Below are positions 854-9,095 of a DNA stretch of 18,704 bases, piece after piece. The DNA comes from a virus. Lineage: Duplodnaviria; Heunggongvirae; Uroviricota; Caudoviricetes. Position 1 is the first letter of the stretch; the number at the start of each line of letters is the position of its first letter. The stretch spans positions 1 through 18,704 of the IMG/VR virus record IMGVR_UViG_3300000059_000086; one strand, given 5' to 3'. The notes beneath the pieces are model-generated. The model saw only the letters and a program-made list of their open reading frames with translations, did not search any database and was not told where the DNA came from. Made by a program: the position numbers and the translations under genes.

Positions 854-929
854 GGCCCTTTAGCTCAGTGGTTAGAGCGGGCGACTCATAATCGCACGGT
901 CACCGGTTCAAGTCCGGTAGGGGCCACCA
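854..929 (+). tRNA. tRNA with CAU anticodon, ileX-like architecture (tRNA-Ile2/lysidine type, or Met)
   Basis: Full 76-nt cloverleaf: acceptor GGCCCTT/AGGGGCC, D-loop AGTGGTTAG, anticodon loop CTCATAA, T-loop TTCAAGT, 3' CCA; closely resembles E. coli ileX as remembered. Confidence 0.85.
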
Positions 930-1959: not shown

Positions 1960-2339
1960 TGTACGAGGCTACTAAATTACGCATCGAGGACGCGATGCAC
2001 ATTGGTTGGGATATCATCACCTGCAAGATAACATCATGCAAGGCTACACGCACAGACGCCGGACACAAGAGCACAATATCAGGTTATGTCGTGATGTCAG
2101 TCAGGAGTGTGCGCATACGCTTCAGATGGAAAGCCTGCCAGGTTACATCATCAATGCCGCTTACCGTCGAGCAGGATTACTTATGCTTACCCGAAATAGA
2201 CGGAGCGTTGCTGGTGGGCAATAGTGGTCGAAAAGCCGATTTTGAAGCCAGTCTGAAGATGGCGCAGGCGGTGATCAACAAACATAAAGGGAAGTGGGAG
2301 GCAAAAGTTAAGCATGTTGTTCGTTTATCCCGCTGGTAG
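1959..2339 (+). CDS. Hypothetical protein (126 aa), translationally coupled to the upstream gene
   Basis: ATG at 1959 overlaps the upstream TGA (TGATG); GGGAGG RBS 8 nt upstream; the track's 1956 start is a TTG two codons earlier. Confidence 0.55.
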   Translation: MYEATKLRIEDAMHIGWDIITCKITSCKATRTDAGHKSTISGYVVMSVRSVRIRFRWKACQVTSSMPLTVEQDYLCLPEIDGALLVGNSGRKADFEASLKMAQAVINKHKGKWEAKVKHVVRLSRW

Positions 2340-2354
2340 TGTTAGTAAGTTAAT

Positions 2355-2367
2355 ATTAATTTTCTAA
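2355..2367 (-). promoter_or_regulatory. Operator-like 13-mer TTAGAAAATTAAT (minus-strand reading) upstream of the lpa-like gene
   Basis: Identical 13-mer at 8194-8206 and close variants at 6797-6809 and 6888-6900; all lie in promoter-proximal intergenic DNA. Confidence 0.4.
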
Positions 2368-2446
2368 TACATCATGTTTTTGACAGTCTTCTCAGTATTA
2401 ACAAGCTGATTATCATCCCCTCGGTCTTTTTCTGTCCGGGGGATAA

Positions 2447-2839
2447 ATGGAGCAAATCAGTAGCGCCGAAATAGCGGATATCATGATCAGGGCTGACTGC
2501 TATCTGACGGTCACCGAAATCACCAGCCGTGCAAAAGCACAATATCCTCACCTTCATGTGTCGCGCGTAAACGTAAATAACATCATACGTTTTTTTGTTC
2601 GTTCCAGTCGTGCCATTTGCGAAATAGACGACCGCGTATACCCCCGGAAATATTGGCTACATGGCCTGAATGGATACCAGTTCAAGGTGCGCGGGCGCAC
2701 TCCTGAATTCGGTCGGCTGTTGGTGAAAAACACCAACCGAAAGATAGAAGCTCAATTACGAAAGGAGCAGCGTCAGTTGGTGGCGATGACTAACCAGCTA
2801 TGGAACGCCGCCGTGAAAAAACGTGAGGCTTCCCTATGA
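2447..2839 (+). CDS. lpa: Small basic protein (130 aa) immediately upstream of and overlapping pacA; positional equivalent of P1 Lpa (late promoter activator)
   Basis: Stop overlaps the pacA start (ATGA); assignment rests on synteny with P1 lpa-pacA-pacB, not on recognised sequence similarity. Confidence 0.45.
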   Translation: MEQISSAEIADIMIRADCYLTVTEITSRAKAQYPHLHVSRVNVNNIIRFFVRSSRAICEIDDRVYPRKYWLHGLNGYQFKVRGRTPEFGRLLVKNTNRKIEAQLRKEQRQLVAMTNQLWNAAVKKREASL

Positions 2840-4200
2840 CGTTAATTAATTGGGAAGCGCATCGAGCTAAGTTCCTGGAGTTAAGAGAAGAAACCGGGAT
2901 CACCATAAAGGAATATTGCGAGCAGCATGACCTCAGCTTTAACACCGCCAGAAAGCATCTCAATATGAAAAAAAATGAGGTTAAAGCGAAAGCTAAGGCT
3001 GCCGGGAAAAGTACAAAACAGCGCGCAAAAAGCAGCGCCACAAGCCCAAAAAAAGAGCAAAAAAAGGCTGATAAAAACACAGAATTTACAAAAACTGACA
3101 AATCGTTAGCTGGTGGACGATTCCGTGCCATGCCGCAAAAACAAAATGCGGATCACAAAGAAAAGTCAAGTAATAACAACAAGATACACAAGGGTGTAAG
3201 GGGATCATTTTGTGATGAAATGGGGGAAATGATCCCTAAAAGCAGCGAAAAAGCCCAACGAAACAAGGGATCATTGCAAATGATCCCTGACTCATCAGCT
3301 CAAAGCGCCACTTTGCCTGCCACCAACGTCGCCCGTGAGATGATGAAGAACGGCGCGACTGAACATTTACGACTTGCGATACAGATGGCGCAGGAACGAG
3401 CAATTCAGTATCAGGCCATCGTTGACCAGGAAGCGGAACGACTACAGGAAGAGATTGACGCCCTCGGCGATACACAGCCAGAGGGAATGCACCCAGGGCA
3501 GCGTCTTCTCGGCCTAATAAGCGATGCGGCCTACTACATGAATGACTTTATCAGTAGGTTGGCTGCCATCTACCAGACCGAGCAGAAGCTACGCCAGGGG
3601 GATGAAAAACTTGCGCAGGGCGCGCGCCAGCAGGCATTCAGAGAGGCTGAGGCCAGAGAAAAACTGGCGATTACTCGCCTGCAAGCCGAGCAGCGTGGCA
3701 AAGAGATTGAGTATCGCATTGGCGCTGACGCACGCGCCGCCAGAGTTATCGCCGCCGCTATACGTATGCGTGAGCGCGAGGAGCTGGACGATATAGGCGT
3801 TGCTGAATATATCGAGCGGCAGGGCGTCAGTGTCCCGGCTATCCTGGCGGCACGAGCGGCAAAAGCGATCTCACTTCTGGAGCCTCCGGTTTCTGACGTT
3901 AACGATGTTGATGATGAGCAACTGGATAAAGAGGCGAAGCAGTTTGCCGAGCAACAAGCTGGACTCCCACAATGGCTTGCACAACGCCGGGCTGAAGTAG
4001 CGAAAATCGTTGATAGGCTTGGGATGGGGGATTACGACCGGAACGGAGAACGTAAAGCCGGTGAATTTGAGGCCAATGATGAAGACCTGAATATAGACCC
4101 TTCCGCCACGGCTGATATCTACGGTGATTATGACGCGGGGGATACCGGTTTTGATGCTGTAGATGACGAGATTGCGATAGACCAGCCGGAGGATGACTAA
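2836..4200 (+). CDS. pacA: PacA-like terminase small/recognition subunit (454 aa)
   Basis: N-terminal HTH-like segment, long charged coiled region, very acidic C-terminal tail; coupled to a downstream terminase ATPase; contains the GATC hexamer cluster. Confidence 0.75.
   Translation: MTLINWEAHRAKFLELREETGITIKEYCEQHDLSFNTARKHLNMKKNEVKAKAKAAGKSTKQRAKSSATSPKKEQKKADKNTEFTKTDKSLAGGRFRAMPQKQNADHKEKSSNNNKIHKGVRGSFCDEMGEMIPKSSEKAQRNKGSLQMIPDSSAQSATLPATNVAREMMKNGATEHLRLAIQMAQERAIQYQAIVDQEAERLQEEIDALGDTQPEGMHPGQRLLGLISDAAYYMNDFISRLAAIYQTEQKLRQGDEKLAQGARQQAFREAEAREKLAITRLQAEQRGKEIEYRIGADARAARVIAAAIRMREREELDDIGVAEYIERQGVSVPAILAARAAKAISLLEPPVSDVNDVDDEQLDKEAKQFAEQQAGLPQWLAQRRAEVAKIVDRLGMGDYDRNGERKAGEFEANDEDLNIDPSATADIYGDYDAGDTGFDAVDDEIAIDQPEDD
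3151..3285. promoter_or_regulatory. Candidate pac packaging site: five copies of hexamer TGATCC/GGATCA, each containing a Dam GATC
   Basis: GATC at 3151, 3203, 3231, 3269, 3282 in both orientations, two pairs forming AGGGATCATT...AATGATCCCT inverted repeats; the P1 pac site is a cluster of TGATCA/G hexamers inside pacA. Confidence 0.45.
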
Positions 4201-5708
4201 TGGCTGGTGGTCGTAAGATTAAGTGCGTGACCAGTGATCCACGTTGGCGCGATATGGTTATCAGGTATCGATACAACTTTACCCAGGCGGTTGTCGATAT
4301 TTTTGGGATGTTCCCCTCCCACCAGCAGCAGCAGATCATTCAGTCAGTGCAGGAGACGGGGAGCAGGACGACCGTTACGTCCGGACACGGAACGGGTAAG
4401 TCGTCCCTTACCGCGATGTTGCTACTAATTTTTATGATCCTGTTCCCCGACGCCCGCGTCATTATTGTTGCGAACAAAATAGGCCAGGTAAAAACAGGCG
4501 TATTCAAATACGTGAAACAGTTTTGGGCGAATGCTGTTAAGCGCCACGGCTGGTTACAGACCTATTTTGTCCTGTCTGACACCATGTTTTATGAGCGTTC
4601 CCGTAAAGGGATATGGGAAGTGCTCTGTAAAGGTTATCGACTCGGTAACGAAGAGGCACTGGCGGGGGAGCACGCGGAGCATTTACTGCTAATCCTTGAT
4701 GAAGCATCGGGCATATCCGATAAGGCGATTAACGTCATGACGGGGGCGTTAACGCAGAAAGATAACCGTATGCTCATGCTTTCCCAGCCTACGCGTCCAA
4801 GCGGTTACTTTTATGAATCCCACCATTCAAGGGCAAAGGCAGAAGGCAATCCGGAAGGAGTCTGGACGGCAATAGTCCTTAACTCTGAAGAATCACCATT
4901 CGTTGAACCGAGCTTTATTCGTGAGAAATTGCTTGAGTACGGCGGCAGGGATTCGCTGGAGTACATGGTTAAGGTGCTGGGCCAGTTCCCGCGTGCAATT
5001 AACGGGTATTTGCTTGGTCGTGATGAGTGCGACCGCGCCGCACGGCGTAAAGTGTTGCTGGAGAAAGATTGGGGCTGGGTAGCGACCGCTGACGTCGGTA
5101 ATGGTCGCGACAAATCGGTGCTCAATATATGCAAAGTATCCGGTTATCGTGAGAAAAGACGTGTTGTGAACTTTAAGATACTGGAGATGCCAGGCACTAT
5201 GGACCCGTTGGCTTTTGCCGACTTTATCTATAACGAATGCACTCCTGATAAATACCCGAACATCACCATTGCTGTGGATGCTGATGGCTTTGGTTCAGAT
5301 ACGTGTGCGCAGCTTGTCCGCCGTGGTGCTAACCCCGTTCGCATCCGTTGGGGTAAACCTATGTTTGCGCTAAGAGACAGAGAACGCTTTGTCAATCAGC
5401 GTGCTTACGCCAATATTATGGCAGGGGATGCCATTAAATCAGGGCGTATGCGTATCGATAGTGACCCCAAAACTGCCGATCAGGCATCAAAAATCCCGTA
5501 TATGCTTAACGAAGAAGGGAAGGTAGCGATGATGCGCAAGGAGCACATGCGGCAGAAGTTAAACATCAAGTCGCCGGACAGATGGGATACCTACTGCTTC
5601 ACTATGCTGGTGGATTACGTGCCTGCTAATGAAGACATTGGCGCAGAACTCGCAACATTCCGCGATCAGGTGTTGGCAGAAGTGGATATTCCTGATATTG
5701 ACATTTAA
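4200..5708 (+). CDS. pacB: PacB-like terminase large subunit (502 aa), ATPase plus nuclease
   Basis: P-loop GHGTGKSS, Walker B LLLILDEASG, C-terminal acidic cluster (VDADGFGSD) consistent with an RNase H-like nuclease half; GGAGGA RBS; start overlaps the pacA stop. Confidence 0.9.
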   Translation: MAGGRKIKCVTSDPRWRDMVIRYRYNFTQAVVDIFGMFPSHQQQQIIQSVQETGSRTTVTSGHGTGKSSLTAMLLLIFMILFPDARVIIVANKIGQVKTGVFKYVKQFWANAVKRHGWLQTYFVLSDTMFYERSRKGIWEVLCKGYRLGNEEALAGEHAEHLLLILDEASGISDKAINVMTGALTQKDNRMLMLSQPTRPSGYFYESHHSRAKAEGNPEGVWTAIVLNSEESPFVEPSFIREKLLEYGGRDSLEYMVKVLGQFPRAINGYLLGRDECDRAARRKVLLEKDWGWVATADVGNGRDKSVLNICKVSGYREKRRVVNFKILEMPGTMDPLAFADFIYNECTPDKYPNITIAVDADGFGSDTCAQLVRRGANPVRIRWGKPMFALRDRERFVNQRAYANIMAGDAIKSGRMRIDSDPKTADQASKIPYMLNEEGKVAMMRKEHMRQKLNIKSPDRWDTYCFTMLVDYVPANEDIGAELATFRDQVLAEVDIPDIDI

Positions 5709-5745: not shown

Positions 5746-6783
5746 TTACCAGAGTTTTGCCGCGTACATCGTTTGTGTGAATGTGTACCCATAGCGTTCT
5801 TCAACGCTTTTACCGTATTTTTTCCTGGCTTCAGTAAGGCGGATGCCTGTCAGGTCATCGCCGGAGGCAATCATAACTTCCAGTAGTTCCAGGTCCATTT
5901 TATCCAGCCTTGCCATTGCATCTTTAGCTTCTTGAATTTTCCGGCTAACGATCTGGTGTATGGCTGGATCGGCTTCGGACAGCATTTTCTCTGATTTGTT
6001 TTTTAAACTCTGATTGCGGATATCAATGTTTCTCAGGATATATGACTTCACGACATAGCTTGGCTGCTGCTTTTCCAGGTCACGAACCCGATAAAGGTCA
6101 AATTCACCGAGAAGGCCGCACGGAAGCGGTTTAATGCCAGTGTAAATGGTAAGGGTGCGGCGCTCACCAACGTTGTTAACAATGGGGATCTCAGTGTTTG
6201 CTTTTCTTGCAAAGATCAGCGCACCGTGCGTACCCACTCTGAAGCGAGAAAGTCCATTGTTGCCCTCGATATTGGTGGTAATCACAACATCGGTATAACC
6301 TTCTTTTCTTGCGCGGTATACCTCGCCCTCACGTTCAGCGGCGAAGAATCTGCGTTCTTCTTCAAGTGCACCGACAACCTGTGAAAATATCCTGTTTTTC
6401 ATGCTTTTCTTTATAGTTTTATCGTATTTTTTCAGCAGGTCTTCGCGCGTGAATGTTCTCGTTGTGGTTGCGCTTTGCATAACGATATGCGTACTCTGAT
6501 TAGTATCCTCAACAATGAATGGGATCGGTAAATAAACCGACTCAACAATGTTTGAGGCTTTGTCATCATCCTTGCGACACAGATCAACAAAGGCTTTCCA
6601 TTCGGCTATGCATTTTTCAGCTTCTTCTAATACAGCCGGATCATGTGTTAATGCAACATGGCGAAATTCCTCGCCAACGTAACTGGTATCATGGAAAACA
6701 GAGTTTGCGACCACCAGCTCTTTCCACCGTTCAGCGGTTTGCAGGAACCGTTTGTACTCATTCTCGATCGACTTCTTACTCAT
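5746..6783 (-). CDS. 346-aa protein in the c1 position of the immC region (between pacB and the recombination site); possible immunity repressor, identity unconfirmed
   Basis: ATG at 6783 with AGGAA RBS (the track's longer ORF starts at an upstream in-frame codon); convergent with pacB; operator-like 13-mers lie just upstream; no HTH or C1 similarity recognised by eye. Confidence 0.8.
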   Translation of the reverse strand: MSKKSIENEYKRFLQTAERWKELVVANSVFHDTSYVGEEFRHVALTHDPAVLEEAEKCIAEWKAFVDLCRKDDDKASNIVESVYLPIPFIVEDTNQSTHIVMQSATTTRTFTREDLLKKYDKTIKKSMKNRIFSQVVGALEEERRFFAAEREGEVYRARKEGYTDVVITTNIEGNNGLSRFRVGTHGALIFARKANTEIPIVNNVGERRTLTIYTGIKPLPCGLLGEFDLYRVRDLEKQQPSYVVKSYILRNIDIRNQSLKNKSEKMLSEADPAIHQIVSRKIQEAKDAMARLDKMDLELLEVMIASGDDLTGIRLTEARKKYGKSVEERYGYTFTQTMYAAKLW

Positions 6784-6796
6784 TATTCCTACTCGA

Positions 6797-6809
6797 TTTA
6801 GTTTTCTAA
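6797..6809 (-). promoter_or_regulatory. Operator-like 13-mer TTAGAAAACTAAA (minus-strand reading), 14 bp upstream of the 346-aa gene start
   Basis: Variant of the 13-mer at 2355 and 8194. Confidence 0.4.
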
Positions 6810-6887
6810 CATAAAAGTCCTGTGACAAATTTATGCTGAATAACAAGGTGAGTAAAGGATAAAACCGCTTTTTTTTGATTGTTCCTA

Positions 6888-6900
6888 TTAGAAAATGTAA
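6888..6900 (+). promoter_or_regulatory. Operator-like 13-mer TTAGAAAATGTAA in inverted orientation relative to 6797-6809
   Basis: Same core TTAGAAAA; paired inverted sites between the 346-aa gene and rox. Confidence 0.35.
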
Positions 6901-6980
6901 CCAGGAAACGACTACCGCATGGCTGACAGATTTGCGAAGTGATCTTGTCGGTGTTTTTTTGGGAAAAAAGTCCCGATTTC

Positions 6981-7012
6981 TAACTTTAAATAATTGGCAT
7001 TATTTAAAGTTA
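6981..7012. other. rox: rox-type site-specific recombination site: 14-bp perfect inverted repeats around a 4-bp spacer (TAACTTTAAATAAT-TGGC-ATTATTTAAAGTTA)
   Basis: Perfect palindromic arms; equals the reverse complement of the published rox site as remembered; lies about 150 bp upstream of the Cre-family recombinase gene. Confidence 0.85.
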
Positions 7013-7164
7013 GGCTATAATCTCCAGTAAACAGGTAGTATTGACAAGGATGAAAAATCATGCCTCGAATCAAAGGCTTGAATTTTTAAAATTAACTTAT
7101 AACTACCCTGTCAGTTTTCTATTTTTCACGTAGCGTCATCTGTATATAGAGGTTTAATAGTTTC

Positions 7165-8193
7165 ATGGGTGAACTAGTTATCTCCGGCGGTTCTGGCGGT
7201 TTTCTGCGCGATATTGGCACCGAATACCAGGAAGCTGCAAAAAACTTTATGCAGTTCATGAACGACCAGGGAGCTTATGCCCCAAATACACTTCGTGATC
7301 TCCGTCTGGTCTTTCATTCCTGGGCGCGGTGGTGTAATTCGCGCCAGCGCCCCTGGTTCCCGATTACGCCGGAAATGGCCCGCGAGTATCTTCTCCAGTT
7401 GCATGAAGCCGATCTGGCTTCGACCACCATTGATAAGCACTATGCCATGCTTAACATGCTGCTTTCGCAATGCGGCCTACCGCCGCTGTCAGACGATAAA
7501 AGTGTATCTCTGGCCATGCGGCGCATCCGGCGCGAAGCGGCAACGGAAAAAGGCGAGCGTACAGGCCAGGCTATACCGTTGCGGTGGGATGATCTGAAAT
7601 TGCTCGACGTATTGCTGTCCCGTTCCGAGCGGCTGGTGGACCTGCGCAATCGGGCGTTTCTCTTCGTGGCATACAATACCCTGATGCGTATGTCAGAAAT
7701 CTCGCGCATCCGTGTCGGAGATCTGGACCAAACAGGTGACACTGTAACGCTGCATATTTCACACACGAAGACCATCACGACCGCCGCCGGACTTGATAAG
7801 GTGCTTTCTCGTTGCACTACCGCCGTGCTAAACGACTGGCTGGAGGTGTCCGGACTTCGTGAACATCCGGACGCGGTGCTATTCCCGCCAATACACCGCA
7901 GTAATAAAGCCAGAATCACGACAACGCCTCTTACTGCTCCTGCGATGGAGAAAATATTCAGCGATGCCTGGGGATTGCTGAATAAGCGAGATGCCACGCC
8001 GAACAAAGGAAGATACCGGACGTGGACAGGTCATAGTGCGCGTGTTGGTGCGGCAATTGATATGGCTGAGAAACAGGTGTCAATGGTCGAGATCATGCAG
8101 GAAGGCACATGGAAAAAGCCCGAAACACTTATGCGATATTTGCGCCGTAGCGGGGCATCCGTTGGTGCAAATAGTCGCCTGATGGATTCCTGA
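7165..8193 (+). CDS. dre: Cre-family tyrosine recombinase, Dre-like (342 aa)
   Basis: Cre-like blocks along its length: WARWC, RNRAFLFVAYNTLMRMSEISRIRVGDL, HSARVGAAIDMA, and the tyrosine block ETLMRYLR; adjacent rox site. Confidence 0.93.
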   Translation: MGELVISGGSGGFLRDIGTEYQEAAKNFMQFMNDQGAYAPNTLRDLRLVFHSWARWCNSRQRPWFPITPEMAREYLLQLHEADLASTTIDKHYAMLNMLLSQCGLPPLSDDKSVSLAMRRIRREAATEKGERTGQAIPLRWDDLKLLDVLLSRSERLVDLRNRAFLFVAYNTLMRMSEISRIRVGDLDQTGDTVTLHISHTKTITTAAGLDKVLSRCTTAVLNDWLEVSGLREHPDAVLFPPIHRSNKARITTTPLTAPAMEKIFSDAWGLLNKRDATPNKGRYRTWTGHSARVGAAIDMAEKQVSMVEIMQEGTWKKPETLMRYLRRSGASVGANSRLMDS

Positions 8194-8206
8194 ATTAATT
8201 TTCTAA
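8194..8206 (-). promoter_or_regulatory. Operator-like 13-mer TTAGAAAATTAAT directly after the dre stop, upstream of the accessory operon
   Basis: Identical to the 13-mer at 2355-2367. Confidence 0.4.
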
Positions 8207-8235
8207 CAATCTTTTTAGACAGTGCATTTTAATGT

Positions 8236-8267
8236 AAAGTACCCTCGCCTATTGCGGAGGGTACTTT
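8236..8267. other. Perfect 11-bp-stem hairpin (AAAGTACCCTC-gcctattgcg-GAGGGTACTTT) between dre and the first operon gene
   Basis: Perfect inverted repeat; no T-run beyond the stem; the 3' stem arm overlaps the TTG start at 8266, so it could be a dre terminator or a translational/operator element. Confidence 0.45.
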
Positions 8268-8610
8268 GCACAATCGTATTACGGAATCAAAACGCTTCAC
8301 TGTTGACGGTTACACCATAACCTTCACTGCGGGCGTTAAGCGCGACCAGGCGGTCGTGGTGTTCGGTGTTATGACCGGACTTGATGCCGTTCCCGTGTTT
8401 ACCCTCGAAAAAAACTGGCGAAATCTGGAGGAAGCTGAACGCTACGTCCGGAAAGTAACCGTCATTGCTGCTGAAAAACTCCTGGCCCACTATCAGGAAA
8501 ATTATCGCGCTATGACCGAGAAAATTAACCATGTTTTCACTCGCCCCACCAGCGGCTTCATTGCCCCTGATGCGAATGCCGGGCGCTATCCGGCAAGGGG
8601 GCGCAAATGA
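8266..8610 (+). CDS. Hypothetical protein (114 aa if the TTG start is used)
   Basis: ORF begins at TTG inside the hairpin; first in-frame ATG is 35 codons downstream; stop overlaps the next start (ATGA). Confidence 0.45.
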   Translation: MHNRITESKRFTVDGYTITFTAGVKRDQAVVVFGVMTGLDAVPVFTLEKNWRNLEEAERYVRKVTVIAAEKLLAHYQENYRAMTEKINHVFTRPTSGFIAPDANAGRYPARGRK

Positions 8611-9095
8611 AAACTTACTACCCATCCCTGAACTGCTATCCAACCACTAATCCTGAGCTGTCAGGGAAACTTCTGTCCCTCCTGGCTGATAGTCCTGATG
8701 AATGGCATAAGCCTGGTGATATCAACACACAGTTCCCTGAGTACGGGTGTATCCGCACCCGAAATGAGCTGAAGAACCTCATTGCTCACGGTTTTGTCCG
8801 TCACCGTAGCGGGAAAGGCTATCAGTTGGCTATCCCACAAGGAGAGGCAAGAGAACTCTTTGGCTATCGAGAAAGCCAGACGCAAGCGCGGGTGATCGCA
8901 GAAATTATCCGTAATGGCAGCGTCTATGCCCGCAAATTCTGGCTGTCTGGCGGTGGCGATGCATCACAGTTCTTGCGTGCTGTGCGATCGCTGGAGGAAC
9001 AAGGTGTTATCGAGAATACCTGCGTCTCCGTTCCGACCGCTCCGCATATCAAACGCCGGATTTATACATTTACCCGGAGAGCTAAAAAGCAATGA
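8607..9095 (+). CDS. Hypothetical protein (162 aa), possibly tandem winged-helix-like
   Basis: AGGGGG RBS; segments LIAHGFVRHRSGKGYQL and LRAVRSLEEQGVI look like winged-helix recognition regions; weak inference. Confidence 0.55.
   Translation: MKTYYPSLNCYPTTNPELSGKLLSLLADSPDEWHKPGDINTQFPEYGCIRTRNELKNLIAHGFVRHRSGKGYQLAIPQGEARELFGYRESQTQARVIAEIIRNGSVYARKFWLSGGGDASQFLRAVRSLEEQGVIENTCVSVPTAPHIKRRIYTFTRRAKKQ

What the first reader, a model, noticed from the sequence alone, without database searches (positions are those of the whole stretch)
6797..6900. Recurrent 13-mer TTAGAAAA(T/C)(T/G)(A/T)A(A/T) at four promoter-proximal positions: candidate repressor operators
The 13-mer TTAGAAAATTAAT occurs identically at 2355-2367 (before the lpa-like gene) and 8194-8206 (after dre, before the accessory operon). 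Close variants occur at 6797-6809 and 6888-6900 in inverted orientation between the c1-position gene and rox. This matches how C1 operators are distributed in P1, although the sequence differs from the P1 operator consensus as I recall it (ATTGCTCTAATAAATTT), which would fit a diverged repressor specificity.
Basis: partly seen in the sequence, partly recalled or inferred. Interest (0 to 1): 0.55.

Follow-up and report, generated by a model that had tools for sequence, protein, structure and literature searches.

The report
D6-type C1 repressor operator sites
The repeated AT-rich word is real: it is the core of a 19-bp site that most likely binds this plasmid-phage's own master repressor, a distant cousin of phage P1's C1 that reads a different DNA word, so it is an expected but apparently unannotated part of the lysis/lysogeny switch.

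Summary
The window is a D6-like, P1-family phage-plasmid: lpa-pacA-pacB, c1 (minus strand), rox, dre. TTAGAAAA occurs four times, all non-coding (0.11 expected there), and never in coding DNA.

- 2338-2356(-) and 2353-2371(+), a bivalent site before lpa
- 6795-6813(+), 12 bp before the c1 ATG
- 8192-8210(+), on the dre stop codon

The fourth reported site (6888-6900) keeps only the 8-bp core, but that core is conserved in relatives.

In D6, 15 of 15 strong sites are non-coding. They sit where P1 has annotated C1 operators: c1, lpa, c4/icd, repL, hrdC-dmt, ref and the ref stop codon. The P1 and D6 matrices do not cross-detect. A Pantoea relative whose C1 is 30% identical carries a third motif (WWTCTAAGRA) at the same places. 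All three C1 proteins fall in phrog_1678.

Verdict: these are operators of a diverged C1 repressor, supported by comparison only. It is a new member of a known kind and of modest interest.

The parts
2353..2371 (+). Operator half-site before lpa, strong half: ATATTAATTTTCTAATACA.
   Evidence: 26.3 bits on the 15-site D6 matrix and 24.4 bits on the 8-site matrix trained outside immC. It ends 76 bp before the lpa ATG. P1's Olpa ends 71 bp before its lpa. Conserved in D6 and pHX138.
2338..2356 (-). Second, inverted half-site (ATATTAACTTACTAACACT). It overlaps the first by 4 bp and makes a 34-bp bivalent operator spanning 2338-2371.
Evidence: 17.9 bits. The same 15-bp start offset recurs at 7 other bivalent sites in D6 and pEC361_3. 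In pHX138 the TTAG and CTAA arms are kept at the same spacing while the central spacer has diverged.
6795..6813 (+). Operator next to c1: GATTTAGTTTTCTAACATA.
   Evidence: 25.0 bits. Its core TTTTCTAACATA is invariant (3 substitutions in the A/T arm) across window, D6, pHX138 and pK91, while nearby intergenic DNA has diverged.
6884..6902 (-). Core-only site: GGTTACATTTTCTAATAGG on the c1-sense strand, with the core at 6888-6895. It is a possible weak or auxiliary operator.
   Evidence: The 8-mer core is exact but the 19-mer scores below 0 bits on the 8-site matrix and is not among the 15-site matrix's hits of at least 6 bits. The core TTAGAAAA is conserved in all four C1 clades inside an otherwise unconserved stretch.
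8192..8210 (+). Operator overlapping the dre stop codon (TGA at 8191-8193): GAATTAATTTTCTAACAAT.
   Evidence: 20.2 bits. It is conserved at the dre stop codon in D6 (24.9 bits), pHX138 and pK91 (16.3 bits). Its position resembles P1's Omat, which overlaps the ref stop codon.
5746..6783 (-). c1 homologue (345 aa), the presumed protein that binds the sites.
   Evidence: phrog_1678 over its full length, E 4.8e-159, the same family as P1 C1. 21% identity to P1 C1 over 241 aa, E 1e-7. Annotated 'c1 phage repressor' in D6 records AY753669 and MF356679. It sits between pacB and rox/dre, as c1 sits between pacB and lox/cre in P1.
6828..6856 (-). Predicted sigma-70-like c1 promoter: -35 TTTACT (6856-6851), 17-nt spacer, -10 TAAATT (6833-6828).
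   Evidence: Read directly from the sequence. Both hexamers are conserved in the four-clade alignment. It scores 8 of 12, below the scan tool's threshold, so it is an inference. If real, the operator at 6813-6795 covers about +8 to +27 of the transcript.
2447..2839 (+). lpa homologue (late-promoter activator), the likely regulated target of the 2338-2371 operator.
   Evidence: tblastn with P1 Lpa gives 34% identity and E 1e-12 at 2453-2821. D6 annotates the orthologous gene as lpa.
6981..7012 (+). rox site, included as context. It marks the c1-rox-dre layout.
   Evidence: TAACTTTAAATAATTGGCATTATTTAAAGTTA. It aligns to the misc_recomb feature annotated as rox in AY753669.

Best explanation
The sites are operators of the element's own C1-family repressor, encoded at 5746-6783. 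They play the role of P1's Op sites but have a different recognition sequence.

One repressor molecule would bind one asymmetric 19-bp site, A-W-W-T-T-A-R-TTTTCTAA-C-A-Y-A. Two inverted sites that share 4 bp of their A/T arms form a 34-bp bivalent operator.

In the lysogen (plasmid prophage), bound C1 would do three things:
1. Shut off lpa from the bivalent operator at 2338-2371, and with it all Lpa-dependent late genes.
2. Limit its own synthesis from the site at 6795-6813. That site lies just downstream of a conserved promoter-like sequence and 12 bp before the c1 ATG. The conserved core-only site at 6888-6895 may assist.
3. Control transcription leaving the end of dre into the orf117-orf116-dut operon, from 8192-8210.

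Shown: the motif, its confinement to non-coding DNA, its conservation, its placement parallel to P1 operators, and its change between C1 clades. Inferred: that C1 is the binder, that binding represses, and where the promoters are.
For: - Motif statistics: four of four 8-mer cores are non-coding, 0.11 expected. Four matrix hits of at least 14 bits against 0.13 in shuffles, using a matrix trained on D6 sites outside this region.
- D6 genome: 15 of 15 hits of at least 14 bits are non-coding, and only 10.2% of the genome is non-coding. The 7 hits not used for training are all non-coding too.
- Placement matches the C1 operators annotated in P1 record AF234172:
  - Before lpa, 76 bp in the window against 71 bp in P1.
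  - Before c1.
  - About 340 bp before icd, against 314 bp for P1's Oc4.
  - Before repL, before hrdC-dmt (Odmt) and before ref (Oref).
  - Across the ref stop codon (Omat) and at pmgR/pmgS.
- Mono- and bivalent forms both occur, as in P1.
- Footprints: the sites are conserved in relatives whose C1 is 80% and 66% identical, while flanks and the bivalent spacer diverge.
- Specificity follows the repressor: the P1 matrix finds nothing of at least 8 bits in the window. The D6 matrix finds nothing above 12 bits in P1 or in the Pantoea plasmid. That plasmid (C1 30% identical) has WWTCTAAGRA before c1 and lpa, around its pmgS-like gene and between the capsid gene and orf52.
- The three C1 proteins are full-length members of one family.
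- Background on P1: C1 binds 22 dispersed asymmetric 17-bp operators and represses repL and lpa (PMC8546580).
Against: - There are no binding or expression data.
- Whole phages differ between clades, so any clade-specific regulator would covary with the motif just as C1 does.
- Consensus scans do not place promoters on the sites. For lpa the best candidate (2389-2416) starts 18 bp after the operator. None is found near 8192-8210. The c1 promoter is my own sub-threshold reading.
- A stable hairpin (8233-8270) lies between the 8192-8210 site and the next gene, so what that site controls is unclear.
- The site at 6888-6900 lacks most of the consensus.
- The Pantoea motif is short and is less well supported.
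Confidence: 0.8

Rival explanations
1. The 19-mers bind a different regulator, not C1. This could be another phage-encoded DNA-binding protein (for example the small 'transcriptional regulator' or 'DNA-binding protein' genes annotated in pEC361_3) or a host nucleoid protein that prefers A/T-rich DNA.
For: No experiment links C1 to the sites. Relatives encode other candidate DNA-binding proteins. The motif is A/T-rich and intergenic, as are sites for IHF, Fis and H-NS. Covariation with the C1 clade would also hold for any other clade-specific protein.
Against: The sites fall at the places where P1 has experimentally founded, annotated C1 operators, at 8 or more orthologous positions including c1 itself. 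The invariant C-T-A-A-C-A core and strict 19-bp register are unlike degenerate nucleoid-protein sites. The IHF consensus WATCAANNNNTTR does not fit by inspection. In pK91, which keeps only the c1-rox-dre fragment of a D6-like element, the only hits of at least 14 bits are the two beside c1 and dre.
Confidence: 0.1
2. The motif is a promoter element, either a late-promoter box recognised with Lpa or an unusual -10/-35 element of early promoters, rather than a repressor site.
For: It is intergenic and upstream of several operons. In D6, some copies lie next to morphogenetic genes (pmgS, and the gene 23/orf52 spacer).
Against: P1 late promoters use a -22 box AAGTGACTT plus a -10. D6 late operons (23, sit, R/S, prt, 7, darA, lydA, 26) share a different box of their own, AAATCACAnnCT followed by a -10-like hexamer, and none of them carries the 19-mer. 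The 19-mer precedes lpa itself, c1, ref, repL, hrdC-dmt and icd/ant, which are early or lysogenic functions. It occurs in both orientations relative to the nearest gene and as palindromic pairs, which fits a bound protein better than a directional promoter element. pmgR/pmgS are C1-controlled in P1 too.
Confidence: 0.06
3. The recurrence of an A/T-rich word in A/T-rich spacers is a chance event with no function.
For: The word is short and low in complexity. One dinucleotide shuffle in 200 reached 4 matches to the 13-mer with up to 2 mismatches.
Against: Non-coding DNA here is not especially A/T-rich (46.7% GC against 48.6% in coding). A matrix trained elsewhere recovers these sites at 18-26 bits, with 0.02 hits of at least 18 bits expected. 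The sites are conserved across relatives where flanks are not.
Confidence: 0.01

Closest known systems
C1-controlled operators of phages P1 and P7 (Op or O sites; consensus ATTGCTCTAATAAATTT)
   Same: - The repressor is homologous (phrog_1678), and its gene sits between pacB and the recombinase site.
- The sites are asymmetric, 17-19 bp, and dispersed over the genome at c1, lpa, repL, c4/icd, ref, the ref stop codon, dmt and pmgR/S.
- Both monovalent and bivalent (overlapping inverted) forms occur, with the A/T arms at the centre of the bivalent form and the specific cores outside.
- A short TCTAA core is shared.

   Different: - The sequence differs: TTTTCTAACAYA with a 5' A/T arm, against ATTGCTCTAAT with a 3' AAATTT arm. 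The two matrices do not cross-detect.
- TCTAA points away from the dyad in D6-type bivalent sites (TTAG-N18-CTAA, 34 bp in all, 4-bp overlap). In P1 it points towards it (CTAA-N8-TTAG, 28 bp, 6-bp overlap).
- The c1-proximal site lies 12 bp before the ATG rather than over the -35 of Pc1.
- tblastn finds no Coi, ImcA/B or Lxc homologue in the window, D6 or pEC361_3.
- There is an extra site on the recombinase stop codon.
immC region of Escherichia phage D6 (AY753669; MF356679)
   Same: The gene order lpa-pacA-pacB-c1-rox-dre is the same, at 81-85% nucleotide identity, and rox aligns without change. All of the window's sites have orthologues in D6, at D6 197-215, 116-123, 4630-4648 and 89946-89964.
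   Different: C1 is only about 80% identical. The window belongs to a sister clade that is 96-97% identical to E. coli plasmids pEC361_3, NZ_CP104667 and others. Neither D6 record annotates any operator. I could not read the two D6 papers to see whether the sites are described in the text.
Candidate operators of a Pantoea agglomerans P1/D6-like plasmid (NZ_CP134736)
   Same: Its C1 belongs to the same family (E 4e-142). A short TCTAA-containing motif lies before c1 and lpa and as palindromic pairs around the pmgS-like gene. 13 of 24 TCTAAG copies are intergenic.
   Different: The motif is WWTCTAAGRA. Its bivalent geometry is CTAA-N8-TTAG, as in P1 and unlike the D6 type. This is my own prediction and rests on fewer sites.

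Membership tests
P1-type ImmC: C1 repressor with dispersed operators | A repressor protein homologous to P1 C1 | tested here: met
   phrog_1678 over the full length: E 4.8e-159 for the window protein and 2.6e-140 for P1 C1. BLASTP gives 21% identity over 241 aa, E 1e-7. There is no Pfam model and no solved structure.
P1-type ImmC: C1 repressor with dispersed operators | c1 lies between the pacase genes and the site-specific recombination module (lox-cre or rox-dre) | tested here: met
   pacB 4200-5708, c1 5746-6783 (minus strand), rox 6981-7012, dre 7165-8193.
P1-type ImmC: C1 repressor with dispersed operators | Many asymmetric operators spread over the genome at early and lysogenic promoters, including c1 (autoregulation) and lpa | tested here: met
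   The window has sites at lpa, c1 and the dre end. D6 has 15 sites and pEC361_3 about 18, at c1, lpa, icd/ant, repL, hrdC-dmt, ref, the ref stop codon, pmgR/S and pdcB.
P1-type ImmC: C1 repressor with dispersed operators | Both monovalent and bivalent (overlapping inverted) operators occur | tested here: met
   The window has a bivalent pair at 2338/2353, and seven more pairs with the same 15-bp offset occur in D6 and pEC361_3. The geometry differs from P1's Obanab and Oc1ab.
P1/P7 immunity specificity (operators matching ATTGCTCTAATAAATTT) | Operators match the P1 17-bp consensus | tested here: not met
   A matrix built from 18 annotated P1 operators gives no hit of at least 8 bits in the window. 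In D6 it gives only scattered hits of 10-13 bits, not at regulatory positions. The element therefore belongs to the C1 family but not to the P1/P7 specificity class.
P1-type ImmC: C1 repressor with dispersed operators | Accessory modulators Coi (upstream of c1), ImcA/B and Lxc | tested here: not met
   tblastn with P1 Coi, ImcA, ImcB and Lxc finds nothing better than E 0.2 in the window, D6 or pEC361_3. The c1-rox spacer is only 197 bp. PMC6799933 also reports that Lxc is not detected in a D6-like plasmid. Very small, fast-evolving proteins could escape this search.
P1-type ImmC: C1 repressor with dispersed operators | C1 protein binds the sites and represses transcription | not testable with these tools
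   This needs EMSA or footprinting, reporter fusions, or ChIP.

The most novel reading that the evidence does not exclude
D6-type C1 proteins would define a second, orthogonal ImmC immunity class among P1-like phage-plasmids, shared by more than 100 Escherichia, Salmonella and Shigella plasmids. In this class the recognition site has been rebuilt rather than merely mutated. The conserved TCTAA core is inverted and moved outward relative to the A/T arm and the dyad. Autoregulation would act from the 5' leader of c1. The switch would run without Coi or Lxc.

One consequence is that immC fragments carried on conjugative resistance plasmids (for example S. Typhi pK91, which keeps c1 with its flanking operators, rox and dre) could act as portable immunity cassettes against D6-like phages.
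Probability: 0.2. Interest if true: 0.5.

Novelty: new member of a known kind. Interest (0 to 1): 0.35.

Why it matters
P1- and D6-like phage-plasmids are common carriers of resistance genes in Enterobacterales. PLSDB alone holds 152 plasmids with a C1 of this type.

- An operator consensus allows superinfection-immunity groups and the repressed regulon (lpa, repL, the antirepressor operon, ref, dmt and others) to be predicted from sequence. It also explains why these elements would be heteroimmune to P1 at ImmC.
- It offers a candidate repressor/operator pair that does not cross-react with P1 C1, from the same phage lineage that gave the orthogonal Dre/rox recombinase.
- The three related motifs are ATTGCTCTAAT in P1, TTTTCTAACA in the D6 type and AATCTAAGRA in Pantoea. 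Together with a protein family that has no solved structure, they form a small natural series for studying how this unusual monomeric repressor reads DNA.

None of this is surprising in principle. A diverged C1 was expected to have its own operators.

Tried and rejected
- Late-promoter element: rejected. P1's -22 box is AAGTGACTT. D6 late operons share a different box, AAATCACAnnCT, and lack the 19-mer. The window has no convincing copy of that box.
- P1-type operators hidden in the window: none found with a matrix built from 18 annotated P1 operators.
- Sigma-70 consensus scans around the three loci: no promoter overlaps a site. The only candidates are a 9-of-12 match for lpa starting 18 bp after the operator, and a strong match inside rox.
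- Orientation of orthologous operators relative to their genes, compared between P1 and D6, to decide how the two consensus sequences align: the result was mixed, so I do not claim a base-by-base alignment.
- Most frequent words in the Pantoea plasmid: the top hits were Chi-like GCTGGTGG and the repB iterons CATGAAACCARCAA, not operators. The candidate motif came from a count restricted to intergenic DNA.
- IMG/VR scan for the bivalent palindrome GTTAGAAAA-N10-TTTTCTAAC: 19 loci. Seven are D6-like, all the ref-upstream operator with the A/T-rich centre. Twelve are unrelated contigs with other spacers. This adds little.
- IMG/VR search with the C1 protein: only four loci, all 99% identical, so no added diversity.
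- pSa1423-90k (C1 56% identical, H77) was fetched but set aside because the gene is fragmented there.
- Literature: Sauer & McDermott 2004 and Gilcrease & Casjens 2018 are not held. Text searches for D6 operators and for the motif string found nothing relevant.
- Rfam: only a tRNA at 854-926.

Full report
**What the window is.** The region 5700-8300 matches the immC region of Escherichia phage D6 at 81-85% identity. D6 annotates lpa, pacA, pacB, c1 (345 aa, opposite strand), the rox site and dre in the same order. The whole window is 96-97% identical to a few E. coli plasmids such as pEC361_3 (NZ_AP027414), and 84-86% identical to the larger D6 clade. The window therefore comes from a D6-like, P1-family phage-plasmid. 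The genes and sites are:
- lpa at 2447-2839
- pacA at 2836-4200
- pacB at 4200-5708
- c1 at 5746-6783 (minus strand)
- rox at 6981-7012
- dre at 7165-8193

**Checking the observation.** The 13-mer TTAGAAAATTAAT occurs without mismatch at 2355-2367 and 8194-8206. Both copies are on the minus strand, so the plus strand reads ATTAATTTTCTAA. A 2-mismatch copy lies at 6797-6809, also on the minus strand. The copy at 6888-6900 is on the plus strand and has 3 mismatches. The shared 8-mer TTAGAAAA occurs exactly four times in the window, counting both strands. All four copies are in the 13% of the window that is non-coding. Base composition predicts 0.11 copies there and 0.58 in coding DNA, where none is found.

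**The real extent of the motif.** I aligned every TTTTCTAA copy from D6 and pEC361_3. Conservation extends well beyond the 13-mer:
- An A lies at -7, TT at -4 and -3, and purines at -2 and -1.
- The TTTTCTAA core follows.
- After the core comes C-A-Y-A.

From the 15 best D6 sites the consensus is AAATTAATTTTCTAACACA, 19 bp and asymmetric.

**An independent scan of the window.** I trained a matrix only on eight D6 sites that lie outside the immC region. In the window it finds four hits of at least 10 bits and nothing else: 2338-2356(-), 2353-2371(+), 6795-6813(+) and 8192-8210(+). With the 15-site matrix, the window has four hits of at least 14 bits against 0.13 in block-shuffled controls.

First, the lpa site is bivalent. 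A second, inverted half-site overlaps the first by 4 bp, giving TGTTAGTAAG-TTAATATTAA-TTTTCTAATA. Second, the site at 6888-6900 is not a canonical site. Only its 8-bp core matches; it scores below 0 bits on the 8-site matrix and is not among the 15-site matrix's hits of at least 6 bits.

**Genome-wide behaviour in relatives.** D6 has 18 exact TTAGAAAA copies where about 4.6 are expected. It has 15 matrix hits of at least 14 bits, and all 15 are non-coding or touch only a stop codon, although 90% of the genome is coding. The seven hits not used for training are all non-coding as well.

The hits lie at these places:
- before c1
- before lpa
- about 340 bp before icd/ant
- before repL
- before hrdC-dmt (bivalent)
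- before ref
- across the ref stop codon
- between pmgR and pmgS, and after pmgS
- before pdcB (bivalent)
- before orf52
- across the dre stop codon

The P1 record AF234172 annotates C1 operators at c1 (Oc1a-e), lpa (Olpa), c4-icd-ant (Oc4), kilA-repL (OrepL), uhr-hrdC-dmt (Odmt), ref (Oref), the ref stop codon (Omat), pmgR (OpmgRa/b) and others. Even the distances agree. Olpa ends 71 bp before lpa in P1, and the window site ends 76 bp before lpa. Oc4 ends 314 bp before icd in P1, and the D6 site lies 343 bp before icd. Omat and the D6 site both straddle the ref stop codon. This parallel map is the main reason to assign the sites to the C1 homologue.

Bivalent pairs with an identical 15-bp offset recur eight times across the window, D6 and pEC361_3. 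This echoes P1's bivalent Obanab and Oc1ab.

**Conservation.** I aligned the three window loci with D6 (C1 80% identical) and with pHX138 and pK91 (C1 66% identical).
- At 6795-6813 the core TTTTCTAACATA is invariant in all four, with 3 substitutions in the A/T arm, while DNA 60-150 bp away is barely alignable.
- The 8192-8210 site is conserved on the dre stop codon in all four.
- At lpa, both TTAG and CTAA arms keep their spacing in pHX138 although the 10-bp centre has changed.
- The core of the weak site (TTAGAAAA at 6888-6895) is also conserved in all four, inside an otherwise unconserved stretch. It is probably functional, perhaps as a low-affinity partner of the c1-proximal site about 90 bp away.

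From memory, P1 C1 is reported to loop DNA between the Op99 sites during autoregulation. I did not verify this.

**The link to the repressor.**
- The 5746-6783 product, P1 C1 and the Pantoea plasmid C1 are all full-length members of phrog_1678, with E between 1e-140 and 1e-159. Pairwise identity to P1 C1 is only 21%. There is no Pfam family and no solved structure.
- The operator sets do not cross-detect. A matrix from 18 annotated P1 operators finds nothing of at least 8 bits in the window. The D6 matrix finds nothing above 12 bits in P1 or in the Pantoea plasmid, whereas true sites score 18-30 bits.
- The Pantoea plasmid has a C1 30% identical to the window's. It carries a different but related word, WWTCTAAGRA. 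This lies before c1 (21170), before lpa (27589), as palindromic pairs on both sides of its pmgS-like gene (30873/30885 and 32273/32285), and in the capsid-orf52 spacer (73433). 13 of 24 TCTAAG copies are intergenic.

Three C1 clades thus have three motifs at the same genomic places, and all three motifs contain TCTAA. This is covariation of site with repressor. It is not proof, because everything else in these phages differs too.

**Comparison with P1 in detail.**
- The P1 consensus ATTGCTCTAATAAATTT is confirmed from the annotated record and from PMC8546580.
- In both systems the bivalent form has the A/T arms overlapping at the centre and the specific cores outside.
- In P1 the TCTAA pentamer points towards the dyad: CTAA-N8-TTAG, 28 bp in all, with a 6-bp overlap. 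In the D6 type it points away and lies further out: TTAG-N18-CTAA, 34 bp in all, with a 4-bp overlap.
- Two alignments of the consensus sequences are therefore possible. One aligns the cores and the other aligns the arms. The orientation of orthologous sites did not settle the question.
- tblastn finds no homologue of Coi, ImcA/B or Lxc in the window, D6 or pEC361_3. A study of a D6-like plasmid likewise did not detect Lxc. The D6-type switch looks simpler than P1's.

**Likely mechanism at each window site.** These readings are inferences.
- *c1.* On the c1 strand there is a conserved promoter-like sequence, TTTACT-17 nt-TAAATT (6856-6828). It scores 8 of 12, below the scanner's cut-off, but both hexamers are conserved in all four clades. 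The 6813-6795 site would then cover about +8 to +27 of the transcript. A bound repressor there would hinder RNA polymerase and give negative autoregulation.
- *lpa.* The 34-bp bivalent operator lies upstream of a 9-of-12 promoter match at 2389-2416. A TTGACA lies 8 bp after the operator. Which of these is used is unknown.
- *dre end.* The site abuts a conserved CTTTTT(A/T) stretch and is followed by a very stable hairpin (8233-8270, -23.5 kcal/mol, z = -6.5). No promoter is predicted there. By analogy with P1's Omat it probably governs entry into the downstream orf117-orf116-dut operon, but this is the least clear of the three.

**Rivals.**
- *Late-promoter element.* This is excluded. P1 late promoters use AAGTGACTT. 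D6 late operons share their own box, AAATCACAnnCT plus a -10-like hexamer, and lack the 19-mer.
- *Another regulator or a host nucleoid protein.* This cannot be excluded without experiments. It does not explain the one-to-one placement with P1's C1 operators.
- *Chance.* This is excluded by the statistics and by conservation.

**Novelty.** Neither D6 GenBank record annotates operators. The searchable literature contains no description of them or of the motif string. The two papers most likely to mention them could not be read. Conceptually this is one more member of the P1-type C1/operator kind, with its own specificity and some differences in architecture. It is useful, but not surprising.

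Noticed in passing
window 6994-7021 (+), overlapping rox 6981-7012: A near-consensus sigma-70 promoter-like sequence (TTGGCA-16 nt-TATAAT, 11 of 12) has its -35 in the rox spacer and right arm and its -10 just outside rox, pointing towards dre. The TATAAT is conserved in all four clades, while the rox spacer (the -35) varies. Recombination at rox would swap the -35.
   Followed up: partly
window 8233-8270 (+): A very stable hairpin (GUAAAGUACCCUCGC...GGAGGGUACUUUGC; -23.5 kcal/mol, z = -6.5) lies between the dre-end operator and the next ORF. It has no U-run after it. In the 66% clade the stem sequence changes but can still pair. It may be a terminator or processing signal for dre, or a leader structure of the downstream operon.
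   Followed up: partly
window 2415-2444 (+): A hairpin (CCCCUCGG...CCGGGGG; -18.7 kcal/mol, z = -2.2) lies directly before the lpa start codon, and its 3' arm includes the likely ribosome-binding site GGGGGA. It is conserved in D6 and pHX138. It could limit lpa translation.
   Followed up: partly
L002/L003 (D6 MF356679): upstream of genes 23, pmgB/sit, R/S, prt, 7, ddrB/darA, lydA and 26: D6 late operons share a box AAATCACAnnCT followed 5-6 nt later by a -10-like hexamer. This is probably the D6-type Lpa-dependent late promoter. It differs from P1's AAGTGACTT -22 box, which fits Lpa being only 31-34% identical. No clear copy occurs in the window.
   Followed up: partly
L014 (S. Typhi plasmid pK91, NZ_CP029871) 13977-20979: This conjugative IncFIB multiresistance plasmid carries only a fragment of a D6-like element (hot, humD, phd/doc, dut, dre, rox, c1, truncated at IS26). 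It keeps an intact c1 and the operators that flank it. It could confer repressor-based immunity to D6-like phages.
   Followed up: no
L017/L018 (Pantoea plasmid NZ_CP134736) 900-1300 and 91790-91900: Fourteen copies of CATGAAACCARCAA cluster on both sides of repB and are presumably replication iterons. Chi-like GCTGGTGG words are also strongly over-represented in this plasmid.
   Followed up: no
window 854-926 (+): A tRNA gene (Rfam RF00005, 66.7 bits) lies upstream of the lpa region, as in D6, which carries tRNA genes near here.
   Followed up: no
L002 (D6) 7850-9085; L005 (pEC361_3) record 64442-66880: A stretch of 1.2-2.4 kb with no annotated gene lies between the tRNAs and pmgS. It holds two or three strong operators, including a bivalent one in pEC361_3 at 66846/66861. 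Something C1-controlled and unannotated may be encoded there.
   Followed up: no
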